Assembly: GCF_009914755.1 (NCBI RefSeq)
Contig: NC_060930.1
DNA: 64,000 nt
Direction: 5' to 3' (one strand)
DNA from: the human T2T-CHM13v2.0 reference genome, Homo sapiens
In this document: positions 39,961 through 54,552 of the stretch, piece by piece
Layout: each line of letters begins with the position of its first letter
Numbering within the stretch: position 1 is the first letter of the stretch
Translations under genes and position numbers: made by a program
Notes under the pieces: model-generated
Told to the model about the DNA's origin: nothing
Seen by the model: the letters and a program-made list of their open reading frames with translations, nothing else
Database searches by the model: none

Positions 39961-42841
39961 TATAAGAAGCACTATGTAGGAATTAGAGATTCAAAGATGA
40001 AAAAGATGCAGACCTGACCTAAAGGAATTCACACTTGGGAAGCTTGGGGTGGGAGGTGGGAGGAACAAAGAATTTTATTAGAAATATAACCACAGGGTAG
40101 TATCTACAATAGTACAAAGGCAGACTTAGACAAAATAGCTGTTTTAAGTCTCCTAGAAGCCGTTCCCAACAATCTAAGAAATTCTGGACTGGTTTCAGGA
40201 CAAATGAATTTCAGAGATAAGGGTAATTTTAAGAAAAACTACTTTATTTTTCTACCTATCCAGCACAGAACACCTATATGAAACATATGCTGAGACATTT
40301 TATGTATATTATCATATTTCCTCTCAATAAACTTTATTCAGTTCTTGCTGCTTTCAAAAGTTTCATTTTAGTTTTCCCTAGATGTAAGGTATTATGTTTA
40401 TGAACCTATGGAGACCACCTTTTAAAGCTAATTAATAAAACTATCCTCTAAAAACTAGCTTAGCTCTCACCATCCCAGCAGTCTTTTTCGAAAACAGTAG
40501 TACATAGTCACTGCTACCCTCTAATGACAACTGCAATCATTCTACCACATTTTACATGTGGTTAGTGGCTATATGCTATGTGGGGGAGCGTGCATTGCTT
40601 CAAAAAAGAAATTTGGAGTCATTTTATTAAAAGTAAAGAGCCAAAGATTTTTGAGGTCAACTATTCCACAGTAAGTAAGCTAGGGCTGAAGTCCATTTGT
40701 GAGCATTTTTCCTAATTGTTGGTAATAAATTTTTATAAATAAAGGGTCTAATGGTAATGTTGACTGATTATTAACTACATCAACCCAAATGTTCCCGTCA
40801 CAGTGAAATTTGCTTTATAATTTACCTTAACGGACTATGTATCAATAAATATTGAAAATGTCCAGTCTCTTCCCCCCACCTCCATTTAAATCAAATCCAA
40901 TTCTATGTGAACAGATTGTACCAATGTATAATTACAATAGCTAATGCACTGGAAAAGTAGTGTTCTTTGATAAATAATTTTTCTAAAACCTCTTAAGCAT
41001 TCTGCATCCTCAACACTTCTCTCACACTCAAAAAATGCAGTAAATTATACAACCAGAAACTAGTGACCATTGCCAATTGTGTTAATGGATCTACAAACCT
41101 CATCATCAGCTCCAATAGTGACTTGTTTTTTTTTTTCTTTTTGGATTTCAAAACTCAGTCAAGTAAGAGTCAAAAAGTACCTAGGGATATTTTTTAAAGT
41201 GTTTATTCATCAAAAGTATAACCAAACCCTAATGGAAATAACAGTCTAGTCACCATTGTAATATAGTGCTAAACCTGCAGTACATATATAATCTTTAGAA
41301 ATCTGCAAACTCCTTGAAATTATGTGTAAAGTTTTGTGTATACATAAATGTGTATAAGCCCCATCCCCTTTCTTCTGCTTTCTACCACTTTATAAACACT
41401 TCTAAGTACAAGCTGAATGCCTCCTCTCAATTTCTCTCCCTGACTCCTCTTCTGCCTTATTTTGATCTCCTCACTCTGTGCCTCTGTTGTAGTCAACAAT
41501 CCAACTGTAACCTCATGTACAAAATGCACTAACTTAGGAGGAATGTTTAATATGAATTCTATGTAGAAAAAGCAGTGACTAATACATGTTTAAGATCAAT
41601 TATGAAAATCATCAAAAAGTATAAGCTCGTTTAGAATAATATCATATTTAGCAGTAAATAAATTTCTTAATTTTAAATTATGGTTTTCCAGATATGTAGT
41701 TTCATACCACATACATTCCCTATAGAGATGCTATTTACCACTTTTACTGTAGTTCTTTAAAAGGGAGGAAAAGATAGAGGAGGGGAAAAAGTTTCCTAAA
41801 AGATTATCCATTGAGTCAATGATCTGTGGGGTTTATTATAAAGCTCCATTATTAGGGCTGAGAGCCTCAAAGGCGTTTATTATAGCACTAATTTCTTTTT
41901 GCAAGGCTTCAGCAAATGAACCGATTTATCTGGTATCTGCATGCTTAGGGCTTGATACATGCTATTTGTACATGACAGGTTTCATCTGCGTAGCACCATT
42001 GATAACATTTATCTGCACATCAAAAAAGCTCATCTCCTGATGAAAAAAAAATCCATGCATATGCTGGGATAAGAAATGTTAAAGTGGTGAGTAAAAGACC
42101 TGTGATATCTCATAAAATGGAACAAAACTACAAAAAGATCACCGATTCAGTATGAATGTGCAACAGTGCTATAGGAGCAGATATAATGTCAAACAAGGAA
42201 GAAATGGAAAGATACTTGCTTACACTGATAAAAGAGTAGGGCTTTGTTACCATCCTGTGAATTTTAACTAGAAATTGGAAAAAAAAATTACTTTCAAATA
42301 AGACAAAGTTTCATAAAGCTTTAAGAACAATGCAAAAGTAGTTCAAAATAAATCTTAAGACAGTACCCATTGTTTGTAACTGCCAGTAGAAATTAACCCC
42401 TGAAAGTTACTCTTATGGGAATAAGATGTTTAGATTGACTGTTGCTGTAGTTCAAAATTAAAAATCTTTGATAAAGCTTAAAGTCCTTATAAGAAAGTAA
42501 CTTTAAAAAACACACAGAAAAAAATGTAACCAAAATGTAAACCTGCTTTCCTTTCAGAAACAATAATCAGCTTACAACATCTGTGTAAAAGATTGTGAAA
42601 GGTGGACACAGCCTACATATTTGAATAATAATGTAATAATAAAGTATTTCCAACAGATAATATATAATATATTCTTTTGAGAAAAATCAGTGTTTTTCTT
42701 TATAAAGAAGGTATACACTGAGTTAAAGAGCTTGTTCCTATAATTCATGATCTTTCAGAACATGTGGTTACGTTAGGCTTCAATCACCTCTTACTCTTAC
42801 TCTTCCCAGCATTTGGTAATATAGACAGTGGAGCTAATTTT

Positions 42842-43355
42842 CTGTCATTCAGGAAGAACTGCTGGATCACTAAACTTGTATCATCATCATCTCTGAAACA
42901 CAGTAAAAATCACTGTTAGACCCAATAGTTTATTAGATCGAACCCACCATCAACAATGTCAACTCTGCCTGGTCGTGTTAACAGGAAAATGTTTTACGAG
43001 TTCCACCACTGGGCATCAATTTAACTTCCAGCACCAGCTATGCTGTAAAACCGTGAATGTAATTTATATGGTGACCCGCGTGTGTGGGAAGCAATATCTA
43101 GGTGAAACTTCTCACAGTCTGACAAAATGCTTTGATTTGCACCATTCAGATGATTGAGCAAAAAGAGTTTAAGCAATCACCACCAATAGCCTTTATCTCC
43201 AAATTCACTAAAAATTTATTACTCTATGAGTGCAATCTATTGCTTTAGAGCCTAGATTGACAGAATAGAAATGACTGGATAAATATTACATTTTCAACTG
43301 GTACACATCTTGTCCATTAGGTTTAAATATTGGACAAGCTATGTGTTTAAGATAA
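42842..43355 (+). mobile_element. Fossil Penelope-like element (Neptune-type): CxxC linker plus GIY-YIG endonuclease relic
   Basis: Translation CQLC..FTSSTTGHQF..LCCKTVNVIYMVTRVCGKQYLGETSHSLTKCFDLHHSD, and later in the same frame LDKYYIFNWYTSCPLGLN; motif order and spacing match PLE endonucleases; interrupted by stops and frameshifts. Confidence 0.8.
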
Positions 43356-45934
43356 ATATCAGTCTTAGCTTATTCCCTCGAACAATACTTTTAGAAAGCC
43401 TACAAATGTTTCCACAGTAACATTTTTGTGCTTACATATAGCAGAGGACACATGTTCACTGCCAATTAGGAGAAAGTAAACCAAGAGACCACTGTATTCT
43501 TCTTATAACAACATACCTTTGTCTTTTACTTAGCACTTAACACAGATGACAATATTTACATATATTTTGCTGTGTACTAAACAACTGAGTAATCACTCAA
43601 GCTGGAAAGGACATAAATAGAGCTCACCCACCTATCCTAAATAACAGTTTACTATTCAGGCCTTCCTAGGAATTTTAAACTAGCATAGATTTCATACAGA
43701 TGGCTTTCCAAGTAGCTACTCCTGTGCACTAACAGAAGGGTGTTTACCTGGCAACCTCTCTATCCACTTGCCTGAGATCATATACCTTTAAATATGGCAA
43801 TGGATGTTTCAGATCTATATATATAGAGCAAAGCTGCGAAGATCGCTGCAACACAACTTTTAAATATCCTTTCTAGCATTATGGGAGGGATCCTATGCAT
43901 ATAATCTTCAATGACTTTGGGTTCCTGAGCTATTACCTTAGCGTTGACTAACCTGATTAACTCAGTACTACTTTCTAGTATTTTCTAATTTGGTTTTTTA
44001 GATACTGTAAAGTAAATAATATCATCTACAGTTTGGTGATGAAAAAATGGACTCAGAGGTTAAATAACTTGACCACTAAGTAACAGAAATGGAATTATAA
44101 CCCAGGTGTATCTGACTCCAAAGCATTTTTCACTATAAACCATCTTTGTTCAAGATTTAACTGTAATAATTAAACTCTTACACTTGAAGGTTTAAAAGAG
44201 TACCTAATAGTAAAATAAGACTAAAGCACACACAGAATTATTTATAAGAGGTGTATCTTTATAATACTCTTAATCACCAACATTTATTCATTAAAGAACT
44301 ATACTACTAATCAAGGGATGATCAGGTTAAGATGACTACTGGTCATTAATGTTGGCAGTTGAGTTCTTTTCCTTAAGGTTTCCAGCCTTGTTTTTATGCA
44401 TTTTGTTTGCCACATCAAAAAAAATAATTGCTTTGTACAAAAAGGATATAAAACAAAAACTTACTACTTAGAAAAACATCACCCATATTCCACATACAAA
44501 GCTTTTTGTTATTGCACTACTAGAAGAGACTTAAGCATTTAACTTGGAATGCCTAGCAAGATCTTTTAAGCTGTTTTTCTTATCTTGTTCTTCAAAATTC
44601 GAAACTAGAAAATCCCACTTGACTAAAAAGGCAAAAAAAGGAGGTTGTCCCTTCTAGGGTTAACAGATGCTTTTTGTAAGATTTTAGGTAAGATTAACCT
44701 TTTGCTCACAACAGGACTGGTTATTTATTTATTTATTTTTTTTACTGTCTTTAACTCAGGTAAAAATCAATATACAGCGAGACAAAGGGCTCTAGAGGGT
44801 CTGGCTACACCAGCTTTTGGTTTGGCTCCTGCACAATTCTACAACATGCTGAGGCTGGGAAGGATTAGCCTGCTTGTGTTGAGTAAACCGATGATACTCA
44901 ATAAACAGTTTCTGTTGTAAACCCCTTAGGACGTGCAAAGCCACACTAGTTGGCAATAGACCAGATAAGCTGCAGAACCAGCTGTAATCTCATTTAGACC
45001 TGAGCTGATCCTCCTGTCCTTTCATTCCACAGGATCAAAGCAAACCACTGAGGAGGCAGCTGTATTATAGCAGCTCTGCTTGCTGGATGCAGCAAACATT
45101 TCATAAATTCCACTCCTTGAAGCAAGTCTCTACCTAATCTACCCAGAGCTGGGACAATCAATGAATTTCTGAATTCATTAGACCGATTATTACAGGGTAA
45201 CCATTTTTTCTTTGGAGAAATATAATGATTGTATGCCAACTTTACAAAGCAGCTGTTTCTGACCATCTCTTTCTTCTGGAAGGGGCTAAATTTTCCCCCA
45301 CAATATTGAATAAAAGTGGTTTAAAAGTACTTAGCTCATTATATTTAATGCATATTAACAAGTAAACAATATATGATGCTAAATTTCTCCAGCAGTAGTA
45401 GCTGACTACCACTTAAAGGCAGCCAAACTTTAACAGTGGCCCATACTTTCCATGTTCAATGACACAGTGAGGAATGCCAAACCCTACTGTAACACAGCAG
45501 CATAGATTAACTGATGCTCCGAAAAAATTTATAGAAAAAGTTGTTGTTGTTTATTAAACAATATTATTTGGCATGTATTTGTATTTTTTTATAAAACAGG
45601 ATAAAATTTTCAAAGTGTTCCAAACTGACATTGTTAAGTGTTTCAAAGTCAGTCAAGCATTTCATCCCCATGCCTCCCCTTCAATAGAACTGACATCTTA
45701 GTATCTATTACTAGGAATTCCTTTCAGTAGAAACCTAAATTTCAAGTTATGAATCTTCAGAAAATTTACCATCCTCATGGTTAAGATAACATTAACTGGA
45801 TGTATAATGGACACTGAAGAGGCAGGTATTAGGCATGACATCACAGATCACTCTAAACAGTGAACGTGAAAGAAATGAAACCCAAAACAAATGCATAGAG
45901 CTATAAAACATTAGCATTTTAAAAGAATCAACTA

Positions 45935-46240
<306 letters not shown>

Positions 46241-52142: not shown

Positions 52143-54552
52143 TGAATCTCTAAATTAGGCAAAATACACTTGCCTTCTGGGAAACAAGGGATATTTTGGT
52201 TACACGTTCTCACAAAACTTCTACTGTAATATAATTCTGAAATAGCTGGACCATTAATTCAACCTAATATATGTAATTTCTTATATTCCAGAGGCCACTT
52301 ACCATCTTCCATGAGTAGTCTGCAGAATGTAAGAGATTCCATATTTTGTATCAAATTAATGGTCCAACCATTTCAGAATTTAAAAAGGAATGACCATGGA
52401 GACATAAAAACTTGGTGGCATTAAATGGCATGATAGTATAAATGCTTTCTACTATACTATAAGCTCTACAAGTGCAGGAACATTTTCATGTACACAAGAG
52501 TACTTACTAGCACAGTTCTGGGACACAGAAGCATTCAAAAAACATTTGCTGAATTACATTGGAATTCCTCTTAGGAAACCACAATTAAAAAACTGTTAGC
52601 TGTTTACTTTTGTGTGTGTGTATATAATTTTTTAAGATTATGACATTTATATATAAAAATCCCTTAAAACTTTTACACATCCAAAAAAATACATAAAATG
52701 CAAATTTCAAGTGGGGCCAATATATTTGCAACATACGTAATGTATAGAAGATTGATGTATTTAATACAATTTTGTGGCAAATTAATATTAAAAGAAAAAA
52801 TAGATTACTTAATAAGAGGGTATCAGAACAATCCACATTCTGTGTTATAGGCTTTTCAAAGCAAACATATCAAAAGATTTCTTCTTCTTGACTTAATCTT
52901 TCATTTCCCTAATGTAAAATCTTCATCTTCTAGTAGTATACCTCAAAAGTGTAATGCATTAGAAAAAAAGGAAGTTGCACAGCTCTATGTAGCATCCGTG
53001 TTGTTAGCATGTACATAAACTTTTTAAAATGCACAAAGCAATACTACATTGGTTTTAGAATCTATTTTTTCATATTAAAATATTCTTCTGACATCTATTT
53101 TTCTTCTATTCCCATTCTCTGACACCTAATGTCAGAAGTAGAAAAGTAGATGTCAGAAGAAAGAAATGCGGCAAAGTGTATCAATAACACAGTGCTATAA
53201 TAACAATTCACTCAAGACCTTAAATATGTGTACAAGTAGCAAAGTTAATTATTTTTATTATTAATGGAATGTGTGAAAGATGTCAGGAAAAACTTTAAAA
53301 ACTTTTGAACTGCTATCTAAATAAACACAAACTTCTAAAGACTTAAAATTCCTCCCTTCTAATATTTGCCACCTATCATCTATATGACATAGTGTAGCTG
53401 ACTTACTGCCACATAATCTAATCACATGCTTTATTTTATGTAGGGCAATCTCAGAGAAAATTCTGTAAGTGACATGGAAGTTTTAAGAAAAGTCTCCAAC
53501 ATCTGTCTATTATTCTATCCATCACAGTGTATTTCATTTATTTGTTTATATGTCTACCTCACTACACTGTGGGGCACTTAAGAGCAGCATTCTGATTTTA
53601 TGCATCTCTACTTTCTCCAATACCAGCACAAAGTCTGTCATGGCAGGTACTTGATGGGCACTCAATAAGTGTACTGGCTGGAAAATACAGACATTTCTGT
53701 TTCATGCATAAGCACAAAATTAATACAGCAGAATTTTCTCCAAAGACATAAGAAAAATAAAAGGGGACAGAGATGTGACCAAGAAAGCAATTTATGTACT
53801 TAAAGCATAAATAGTATTCTTTTCATGGAATACCTATCATTGTACTGATTCAGAATGGAGCCCTAAAAAATCTTAATTTAGAATGGAAAACTCTGTCTAA
53901 TAAACCATTCTCTCACTTTACTTCTCTGAAACCAACACACAGTAATGATTATAAAAGCAATCACCGCTAGGTACTCTGTTAGACATGACATATATTACCT
54001 TTTTTATTCTCCAAATCAGCTCTTCAATACGTATCATTATACACATTTTACAGGTCAGAAAGACTGAGGTTCAAAGAAGTGACAAGACTTGTTGAAGACT
54101 ACAGTGAAAGAGCAGAGTCAGGATTCAAATTCACATTTGTAACATTTTGAAAAATACAGTAATTTTTTTTTACTATAAGCAAAAGACTATTCTATGTATG
54201 ATTCACACATACGAAATGACTGAAGTGAAAATTTGCTCGAATGGTTTTGACAATGGATATATTAATGACCCACAAAACTGAAATACAGTGAATATCCCAG
54301 TTAGATAAGCTAAGCAAATCAAATTTTTAAGCAACTAGGATCTTGGAAACAAGAGCCAAGCCAACTAAAAACTATGTACAGTTCCTAAACATTCACTGGG
54401 TTAAATGACGTTTGATTTATATACATGAAGTTTGAGATATTACACAGTTTTAAACAGTGCATGAGCACATTGTGTGTGTGTGTGCGTGTGTGTGTGTCTG
54501 TAGACAGAGTAACATGTCTTTGATATTTTTTTCTGTGAAGAAAATGAGGTTG

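What the first reader, a model, noticed from the sequence alone, without database searches (positions are those of the whole stretch)
42842..43355. Readable fossil of a Penelope-like GIY-YIG endonuclease inside the large MMS22L intron
Seen: an open frame at 42897-43157 reads ...THHQQCQLCLVVLTGKCFTSSTTGHQFNFQHQLCCKTVNVIYMVTRVCGKQYLGETSHSLTKCFDLHHSD. After a 1-nt shift it continues IEQKEFKQSPPIA, and back in the first frame at 43275-43331 it reads LDKYYIFNWYTSCPLGLNI. Known: Neptune-type Penelope-like retroelements end in CxxC..FxSxxTGxxF..CxTxNVIYxIxCxCxxxYxGETxRxLxxRxxEHxxxI..PVA..RExxWIxxLxTxxPxGLN. The order and the ~86-codon NVIY-to-PxGLN spacing match. Several expected Arg positions are one CpG transition away (CAC; TGC at the catalytic Arg position 43128; CAT; TGA at 43272), which fits decay after insertion. 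Inference: PLEs are long extinct in mammals, so a copy this legible within a repeat-poor block may have been exapted as a constrained non-coding element. It is not an active nuclease.
Basis: partly seen in the sequence, partly recalled or inferred. Interest (0 to 1): 0.8.

Follow-up and report, generated by a model that had tools for sequence, protein, structure and literature searches.

The report
Decayed Penelope-like endonuclease fossil, MMS22L intron
This stretch of a human MMS22L intron is a dead remnant of the endonuclease gene of an ancient Penelope-like jumping element; it is unusually well preserved, but such fossils have already been described in the human genome.

Summary
The + strand at 42939-43337 matches the C-terminal CxxC-linker and GIY-YIG endonuclease of Penelope-like retroelements (PLEs). 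The 86-codon open frame hits 212 proteins at E<=0.001 among 1.84 billion. The long hits checked carry reverse transcriptase plus a C-terminal GIY-YIG domain. A profile I built from 53 PLE endonucleases scores 72 bits, E 2e-24, and nothing else in the window exceeds 0.1 bits.

The PLGLN tail is supported only when anchored to the first half. No reverse transcriptase remains. The catalytic Arg is Cys, and the frame carries stops and two shifts, so it is not a nuclease.

The first half looks only about 0.1 substitutions per site from a working endonuclease. Close translated look-alikes exist in unnamed DNA of other organisms. This favours purifying selection on non-coding DNA, but the donor species are unknown and constraint is not shown.

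The kind is in print: Frith 2022 reports 56 pre-amniote Penelope protein fossils in human, which the paper describes as exapted. Low novelty.

The parts
42897..43157 (+). 86-codon stop-to-stop open frame (P0001). It holds the CxxC linker and the first half of the GIY-YIG domain, and has no ATG before codon 58.
   Evidence: The length alone is not unusual for this window.
42939..43151 (+). Well preserved first half of the PLE endonuclease. It runs CxxC (42957-42968), F.SS.TG, C..NVIY (43056-43067), QYLGET, then the consensus Arg positions read as His, Cys (TGC 43128) and His.
   Evidence: The N-half profile scores 60.6 bits, E 3e-20. hhalign gives 99.4%. phmmer hits reach RT+GIY-YIG ORFs. 11 of 14 invariant or near-invariant columns of A1 are kept.
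43152..43271 (+). Broken middle of the endonuclease: a 1-nt insertion near 43152-43155, several stops, and a return to the first frame before 43272. No frame here is recognisably PLE-like.
Evidence: The 1-nt insertion is inferred because P0004 reads through in one frame.
43272..43337 (+). C-terminal end of the endonuclease: TGA at 43272, then D.YYI...T..PLGLN. Pro, Gly and Asn are kept. Glu reads Asp, Trp reads Tyr and Leu reads Trp.
   Evidence: In the anchored shuffle test 0 of 2000 shuffles reach the real score. It is not found by the C-half profile alone.
42687..42896 (+). Upstream flank that also has translated look-alikes in unnamed DNA. It has four stops in human in that frame and is not recognisably PLE.
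   Evidence: P0002 aligns from 42687 and P0003 from 42773, in another frame. PLE upstream profiles and tblastn find no RT or linker here, apart from one tblastn alignment of P0012 that reaches back to 42786.

Best explanation
What it is: the 3' end of an ancient, 5'-truncated Penelope-like retroelement with a C-terminal endonuclease, of Neptune-type layout. It inserted on the + strand, antisense to MMS22L, in what is now a large intron.

What it coded: the zinc-finger-like CxxC linker and the GIY-YIG nicking endonuclease that primes reverse transcription at the target.

State now: it is dead. The catalytic Arg reads Cys, other consensus Arg codons have decayed by CpG transitions, there are two frame shifts and six stops across the domain, no start codon, and no reverse transcriptase.

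Why it survives (inferred, not shown): about 210 bp of its first half have stayed close to the working sequence because the DNA itself has been under purifying selection as a non-coding element. The likeliest role is as part of a cis-regulatory block that also includes conserved sequence 1 kb upstream.

My odds are about 0.97 for the identity and about 0.65 for constraint or exaptation. The figure below is for both together.
For: Identity:
- 212 of 1.84 billion library proteins match P0001 at E<=0.001.
- Of the 19 hits scanned with Pfam, 16 carry PF01541, and 4 of those (P0076, P0081, P0101, P0118) also carry RVT_1. In all 4 the match to P0001 lies at the C-terminal end.
- My profile of 53 PLE endonucleases scores 72.1 bits, E 2e-24, over model positions 4-138 of 143.
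- hhalign gives 99.4%.
- 13 tblastn alignments from all 12 long PLE proteins hit 42786-43328 at E 6e-13 to 5e-6. Everything else in the window is at E>=0.076.
- An endonuclease-only remnant that ends 7 codons after GLN fits a 5'-truncated element with a C-terminal endonuclease.

Low decay:
- Against a held-out profile the first half scores 70.2 bits. Intact members score 91.6 +/- 7.5.
- Random substitution of members brings them down to the relic's score at d about 0.05-0.1. Only 1.9% still reach it at d=0.2, and 0 of 260 do at each tested d from 0.3 to 0.7.
- 11 of 14 near-invariant columns are kept in the first half, against 3 of 7 in the second.
- There is no frame-breaking indel in 258 bp.

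Look-alikes elsewhere:
- P0002 (90% identity), P0003 (80%) and P0004 (61%) are translations of the same element from unnamed DNA.
- They differ from human by frame-breaking indels, so the sequence evolves as non-coding DNA.
- The core is more alike than the upstream flank. P0003 shows 67 of 84 against 27 of 45 identical residues (Fisher p=0.02). P0002 shows 77 of 86 against 57 of 72 (p=0.08).

Context in print: Frith 2022 reports 2 pre-tetrapod and 54 other pre-amniote Penelope fossils in human. They lie in gene deserts and large introns and are described as strongly conserved and exapted (passages).
Against: - Constraint is not measured. The organisms behind P0002-P0004 are unknown, so 80-90% translated identity could simply be neutral divergence among close relatives.
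- The proteins used for the decay estimate were picked by their likeness to this relic. That inflates its score and lowers the estimated d.
- The age of this particular insertion is not established here. It rests on print statements that Penelope activity is not reported in amniotes (Kojima 2018) and on recalled neutral rates.
- No RefSeq functional element overlaps the relic. The nearest is a silencer at 44426-44626 (hub table).
- Orthologues with stops would have been missed by a protein search, so the open frames in the look-alikes prove nothing.
- The generic GIY-YIG model does not see the locus.
- The C-terminal half is not detectable on its own.
Confidence: 0.62

Rival explanations
1. 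A neutral relic. It is the same PLE endonuclease remnant with no function, and it is legible only because the local mutation rate is low, because it is younger than assumed, or by luck.
For: - No direct measure of constraint was possible.
- The flank-to-core difference is modest (p=0.08 and 0.02).
- The second half of the domain has decayed much more: 3 of 7 conserved columns kept, two frame shifts and six stops.
- The decay estimate is biased by how the reference proteins were chosen.
- The 86-codon frame is not unusual in this window.
Against: - The first half sits at d about 0.1 with no frame-breaking indel in 258 bp.
- By my recollection, neutral human-lineage divergence since the placental ancestor alone is about 0.15-0.2 per site. 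Elements of MIR/L2 age stand at 25-35% from consensus.
- PLE activity is not reported in amniotes (Kojima 2018).
- All the other PLE traces I found in the whole genome are far weaker: at most 29.8 bits against 54.9 for this locus.
Confidence: 0.3
2. A former or present protein-coding domestication. On this reading the zinc-finger/GIY-YIG first half was kept for a time as a host protein module, and is perhaps still coding in some lineages.
For: - The first half is open in human and in all three look-alikes.
- It is much better kept than the catalytic second half.
- Frith 2022 describes a Crypton relic that may have gone through such a phase (passage).
Against: - In human there is a stop directly upstream, no ATG before codon 58, a stop after codon 86, and no annotated + strand transcript (hub table).
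- Human, P0003 and P0004 differ by frame-breaking indels next to the core.
- Finding only open copies is an artefact of searching a protein database.
- The catalytic Arg is Cys in all four copies.
Confidence: 0.04
3. A chance resemblance of intronic sequence to GIY-YIG motifs.
For: - Pfam, NCBIfam and PDB sequence searches give nothing.
- The middle peptide is no better than shuffles.
Against: - E 2e-24 against the PLE endonuclease profile.
- 212 library hits, 3 of them at E<=1e-10 (the three look-alikes P0002-P0004); the best unrelated hit is at E 9.6e-9.
- hhalign at 99.4%.
- 0 of 2000 shuffles reach the real score in the anchored tail test.
Confidence: 0.01

Closest known systems
Penelope-like element protein fossils in the human genome (Frith 2022, Mol Biol Evol, PMC9004415; passages and PDF supplement searched)
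   Same: It is a decayed PLE coding sequence found by protein-level likeness. It lies in a large intron, carries frame shifts and stops, and is probably conserved as non-coding DNA. My weaker hit at C13:105649754-105650128 is probably the fossil that paper lists near EFNB2 (coordinate systems differ, so this is not verified).
   Different: This locus is not named in the main text or the PDF supplement: 'MMS22L' and 'chr6' each occur 0 times. The full list is on Zenodo, which I could not read. Here the surviving part is the endonuclease. In my searches it is the strongest PLE-like place in the genome, although the query proteins had been picked by likeness to it.
Canonical endonuclease-bearing PLEs of the Neptune clade (Arkhipova 2006, recalled; Craig et al. 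2021, PMC8557442, passages)
   Same: It shares the CxxC linker directly before a GIY-YIG core with internal cysteines, then the H..SD and W/I..L.T..P.GLN end, with the frame closing a few codons after GLN.
   Different: - No RT is left.
- The first Cys of the CX2-5CxxC is missing.
- One internal Cys reads Arg in human, though it is Cys in the look-alikes.
- The catalytic Arg reads Cys and Glu reads Asp.
- No hammerhead ribozyme and no pseudo-LTR repeat was found.
- The clade was assigned by motif layout only. No named Neptune sequence was available for comparison.
Repbase UCON13 (filed under Penelope by Kojima 2018, PMC5753468) and the RepeatMasker family Penelope1_Vert
   Same: Both are ancient, low-copy Penelope-derived repeats annotated in human.
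   Different: I could not compare sequences, because no Dfam or Repbase library is among the tools. 'Penelope1_Vert' occurs in 0 papers of the library and 'UCON13' in 1. At the DNA level this stretch is single-copy in the genome.
Host GIY-YIG nucleases, Pfam PF01541
   Same: They share the same superfamily fold with the parent domain.
   Different: PF01541 finds only three places on contig 16 of this genome and not this locus. By my recollection those three are the SLX1 copies. P0001 gives no Pfam hit.

Membership tests
PLE C-terminal GIY-YIG endonuclease (the type NCBI describes as cd10442, per Craig 2021) | Significant sequence likeness to endonuclease domains of ORFs that also carry a PLE reverse transcriptase | tested here: met
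   hits P0076, P0081, P0101 and P0118 carry RVT_1 plus a C-terminal GIY-YIG; 72.1 bits, E 2e-24; 99.4%.
PLE C-terminal GIY-YIG endonuclease (the type NCBI describes as cd10442, per Craig 2021) | CX2-5CxxC linker motif upstream of the core (Neptune/Naiad type; absent in Penelope/Poseidon) | tested here: inconclusive
   CxxC is present at 42957-42968. The first Cys position reads Thr in human (alignment) and is also absent in P0002 and P0003.
PLE C-terminal GIY-YIG endonuclease (the type NCBI describes as cd10442, per Craig 2021) | [quoted passage not shown] | tested here: inconclusive
   Human reads T-R-V-C, with the first Cys position either deleted or read as Arg. P0002, P0003 and P0004 read C-x-C. 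The His of the H.SD motif is kept. The second His cannot be placed.
PLE C-terminal GIY-YIG endonuclease (the type NCBI describes as cd10442, per Craig 2021) | Catalytic R, H, E and N intact (Van Roey 2002, as cited in Craig 2021) | tested here: not met
   Arg reads Cys (TGC at 43128) in human and in all three look-alikes. Glu reads Asp. His and Asn are kept. This is expected of a fossil: it descends from the family but is not a working member.
PLE C-terminal GIY-YIG endonuclease (the type NCBI describes as cd10442, per Craig 2021) | Reverse transcriptase upstream in the same ORF | tested here: not met
   tblastn of 12 long PLE proteins finds no RT hit near the locus. A profile of 24 upstream parts scores -4.4 bits at best anywhere in the window.
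PLE C-terminal GIY-YIG endonuclease (the type NCBI describes as cd10442, per Craig 2021) | Hammerhead ribozyme or pseudo-LTR structure of full PLE insertions | tested here: not met
   Rfam at E<=1 over 40000-46000 gives only a weak SRP/Alu match. No convincing direct repeats appear in 41000-45500.
Pfam GIY-YIG (PF01541) | Score over the curated cut-off of 22.6 bits | tested here: not met
   One search gives 0 families at E<=10. In one search the locus is not among the genome's PF01541 matches.
Exapted TE-derived conserved non-coding element | Substitution rate below neutral across named species (phyloP/phastCons), with presence outside placentals | not testable with these tools
   The evidence is indirect only. 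Searches give look-alikes of unknown origin. One search gives the decay estimate. One search gives the core-versus-flank comparison.
Exapted TE-derived conserved non-coding element | Regulatory activity or chromatin marks at the element | not testable with these tools
   The hub table lists only a RefSeq silencer at 44426-44626, which does not overlap the relic.

The most novel reading that the evidence does not exclude
This would be the best preserved Penelope-like endonuclease fossil in the human genome. Its zinc-finger/GIY-YIG first half, frozen at about 0.1 substitutions per site, would be the core of a deeply conserved regulatory element. The element would have been built from former coding sequence and would sit within a larger conserved block (41680-43340) of the MMS22L intron, perhaps serving a distant developmental gene rather than MMS22L. 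A bolder version holds that this half first passed through a spell as a host DNA-binding protein module.
Probability: 0.12. Interest if true: 0.45.

Novelty: new member of a known kind. Interest (0 to 1): 0.22.

Why it matters
It adds one clear, checkable example to a known class: coding sequence of long-extinct retroelements that survives in the human genome, probably as regulatory DNA. Because the endonuclease first half is so legible, the locus would be a convenient test case for asking what sequence features of a former gene are kept once it serves as non-coding DNA. It also helps to date PLE activity in our ancestors. It does not change what is known about PLEs, GIY-YIG nucleases or MMS22L. 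It is very likely already in the genome-wide fossil list of Frith 2022.

Tried and rejected
- Pfam, NCBIfam and PDB sequence searches with P0001 gave no hits.
- The C-half profile alone found nothing at the locus.
- The search for RT or linker remains on either side found none.
- No hammerhead or other Rfam family was found, and no pseudo-LTR or tandem copy.
- DNA copies in the own genome: only the locus itself.
- Protein-level copies of P0001 in the own genome: the locus plus 7 weak places at E 0.37-8.2, taken as chance.
- Searches for DNA of related loci:
  - IMG/VR gave one 20-residue match at 65% identity, taken as chance.
  - Prokaryote genome contigs gave none.
- A calibration of neutral divergence with a frame 1 kb upstream returned P0152 and P0153. 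That block is also well matched in unnamed DNA, so it gave no neutral yardstick.
- The ESM Atlas gave eukaryotic clusters at 0.90-0.92. In one of them 10% of members carry PF01541. I treat this as a lead only.
- Literature:
  - 'MMS22L' with 'Penelope' gave one unrelated paper.
  - 'Penelope1_Vert' gave 0 papers.

Full report
**Observation**

The frame starting at 42897 is open for 86 codons up to the TGA at 43155 (P0001). 43275-43331 reads LDKYYIFNWYTSCPLGLNI. Asn of NVIY (43056) lies 86 codons before Pro of PLGLN (43314). The open frame itself is not remarkable, because 34 stop-to-stop frames of 75 codons or more overlap 30000-58000.

**Is it a PLE endonuclease?**

The generic libraries say nothing. 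Pfam and NCBIfam give 0 families at E<=10, and PDB sequences give 0.

A full HMMER pass of P0001 over 1,835,955,588 representative proteins gave 212 hits at E<=0.001. I scanned 19 of the 150 listed hits with Pfam:
- 16 carry PF01541 (GIY-YIG).
- 4 of those (P0076, P0081, P0101, P0118) also carry RVT_1 upstream of the GIY-YIG domain. This is the architecture of endonuclease-bearing Penelope-like elements.
- 3 had no GIY-YIG match: P0004, P0116, and P0008, which is a PT-repeat protein and probably a false hit.

From 147 hits I cut the endonuclease region. I kept the 53 that reach the G[LIVM]N end and built a profile of 143 positions. Run over all six frames of the window with X at stops, it gives one hit: + strand, 42939-43337, model positions 4-138, 72.1 bits, E 2e-24. 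The next best place scores 0.1 bits. Independently, hhalign of P0001 against a MAFFT alignment of 22 short hits (A1) gives 99.4% probability, E 2.2e-21, over 70 columns at 36% identity. tblastn gave 13 alignments from all 12 long PLE proteins on 42786-43328 at E 6e-13 to 5e-6. Everything else in the window is at E>=0.076.

**The three segments taken apart**

- The first half alone scores 60.6 bits.
- The C-terminal half alone, as a 70-node profile run unanchored, reports nothing at the locus.
- Anchored to the first half, the real sequence scores 83.5 bits against 69.7 for the first half alone. 0 of 1000 base shuffles and 0 of 1000 codon shuffles of 43152-43340 reach 83.5, their maxima being 81.1 and 80.5. 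So the PLGLN end is real, at the right distance and in the original frame.
That frame scores 82.1 bits, the unshifted one 85.3, and 144 of 1000 shuffles match or beat the real maximum.
- A 1-nt insertion near 43152-43155 is still likely, because the look-alike P0004 reads across this point in one frame. But what follows is no longer recognisable as PLE.

**State of the domain**

Of the 14 invariant or near-invariant columns of A1 that fall in the first half, the relic keeps 11. The lost ones are:
- one internal Cys, deleted or read as Arg in human but Cys in P0002-P0004;
- Val to Leu;
- the catalytic Arg to Cys.

Of the 7 such columns in the second half it keeps 3 (Pro, Gly, Asn). Glu reads Asp, Trp reads Tyr, Leu reads Trp, and one His cannot be placed.

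Three consensus Arg positions read His, Cys and His, each one CpG transition from CGN. At one of them P0003 still has Arg where human has His. That shows the decay happening on the human side.

There are six stops across the domain's read-through and two frame shifts. There is no ATG before codon 58. It cannot be an active nuclease.

**What else of the element is left**

- No RT or linker is detectable on either side. tblastn of full-length PLE ORFs finds none, and a profile of 24 upstream parts scores -4.4 bits at best anywhere in the window.
- No hammerhead ribozyme or other Rfam family at E<=1 lies in 40000-46000, apart from a weak SRP match at an Alu.
- There is no pseudo-LTR-like repeat.

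An endonuclease-only remnant whose frame closes 7 codons after GLN fits a 5'-truncated copy of an element with a C-terminal endonuclease. The CxxC directly before the core fits the Neptune layout. Craig et al. 2021 state that the CX2-5CxxC linker is absent in Penelope/Poseidon and reduced in Nematis (passages). No named Neptune sequence was available, so the clade call rests on motif layout only.

**Copies in the genome**

- At the DNA level 42842-43355 is single-copy in the 3.1-Gb assembly.
- P0001 finds only itself plus 7 places at E 0.37-8.2.
- Natural PLE proteins used as queries find this locus first: 54.9, 44.1 and 36.1 bits.
- They also find three weak RT-like places: C14:30352701-30352982, C13:105649754-105650128 and C9:9905635-9906153, at no more than 29.8 bits.
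- Those queries had been chosen by likeness to this locus, so its first rank in the endonuclease part is biased.
- PF01541 finds only three places on contig 16.

**Constraint**

Three translated look-alikes of the element turned up in databases built from unnamed DNA: P0002 (159 aa, 90% identity over the 86 codons), P0003 (128 aa, 80%) and P0004 (137 aa, 61%).

- All three share Cys at the catalytic Arg position.
- P0002 and P0003 share the human 1-nt insertion. P0004 does not.
- P0003 and P0004 differ from human by frame-breaking indels beside the core. So the sequence evolves as non-coding DNA.
- No paralogue exists in human, which makes orthology the simpler reading for all three.
- The core is more alike than the upstream flank. 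P0003 shows 67 of 84 against 27 of 45 identical (p=0.02). P0002 shows 77 of 86 against 57 of 72 (p=0.08).

Because the organisms are unknown, none of this calibrates a rate. A frame 1 kb upstream, tried as a yardstick, also returned close look-alikes (P0152, P0153), which span three human frames over 41680-42247. The relic therefore sits in a wider well-matched block.

As an internal measure I built a profile from 27 of the 53 endonucleases and scored the other 26.
- Intact, they score 91.6 +/- 7.5 bits.
- The relic's first half scores 70.2 bits.
- I then applied random substitutions to back-translated members. They fall to the relic's level at d about 0.05-0.1.
- 1.9% still reach it at d=0.2, and 0 of 260 do at each tested d from 0.3 to 0.7.
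- The count of 11 of 14 conserved columns gives a similar d of about 0.1 (my arithmetic).

There are two caveats. The members were picked by likeness to the relic, which flatters it. The neutral expectation is recalled, not computed: about 0.15-0.2 per site since the placental ancestor, and more for older insertions. Given that Penelope activity is not reported in amniotes (Kojima 2018, passage), a first half at d about 0.1 with no frame-breaking indel in 258 bp is best explained by purifying selection. I put that at about 0.65.

**What is known**

- Frith 2022 (PMC9004415; passages read; PDF supplement searched) scanned the human genome with RepeatMasker's TE proteins.
- It reports 2 pre-tetrapod Penelope fossils, near FAT1 and EFNB2, and 54 other pre-amniote ones. 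Only 1 of the 54 was previously in RepeatMasker.
- It describes such fossils as lying in gene deserts and introns of about 100 kb, near developmental genes, with strong conservation taken as exaptation.
- MMS22L is not named in the text or the PDF supplement. The full list is on Zenodo and was not readable here, so I cannot say whether this locus is in it. With a plain tblastn E of 6e-13 it very probably is.
- Kojima 2018 (PMC5753468; passages) files Repbase UCON13 under Penelope.
- 'MMS22L' with 'Penelope' returns one unrelated paper. 'Penelope1_Vert' returns none.

**Verdict**

It is the dead 3' end of a Neptune-type PLE, antisense in an MMS22L intron. Its first half is preserved well enough to make non-coding constraint the likeliest reason. 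The class is already described, so the finding is a new (or merely unlisted) member of a known kind and of modest interest.

Noticed in passing
window 41680-42247 (+): A block about 1 kb upstream of the relic has close translated look-alikes in unnamed DNA (P0152, P0153). Pieces reach 89% (34 of 38, P0152) and 74-76% identity, and one search's BLASTP gave 97% for P0153 over 34% of the query. The matches span three human frames, so this is non-coding conservation. It shows no PLE likeness.
   Followed up: partly
own genome: C14:30352701-30352982 (+), C13:105649754-105650128 (-), C9:9905635-9906153 (-); loci L011, L012/L014, L016: These are weak reverse-transcriptase-like matches to PLE ORFs, each with several stops (E 4.7e-4, 3.3e-4 and 0.74). 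The C13 place is probably the Penelope fossil that Frith 2022 lists near EFNB2.
   Followed up: no
own genome: C16:29736573-29736722, C16:30478674-30478823, C16:30580646-30580795 (L019-L021): These are the only PF01541 GIY-YIG matches in the genome: three identical copies at 27.4 bits. By my recollection they are the SLX1 gene copies of 16p11.2.
   Followed up: no
window 52523-52645 (-): This is the second-best place for the PLE endonuclease profile in the window (0.1-1.9 bits, E 0.05-0.2). It has a C..NV-like stretch. I take it as chance.
   Followed up: no
window 45937-46000 (+): A weak Metazoa_SRP match (16.6 bits, below the gathering score) sits at the start of a masked stretch. I take it to be an Alu.
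   Followed up: no
window 43077-43079: Human reads Arg (CGC) where all three look-alikes read Cys. This is a T-to-C change on the human side that created a CpG inside the relic.
   Followed up: partly
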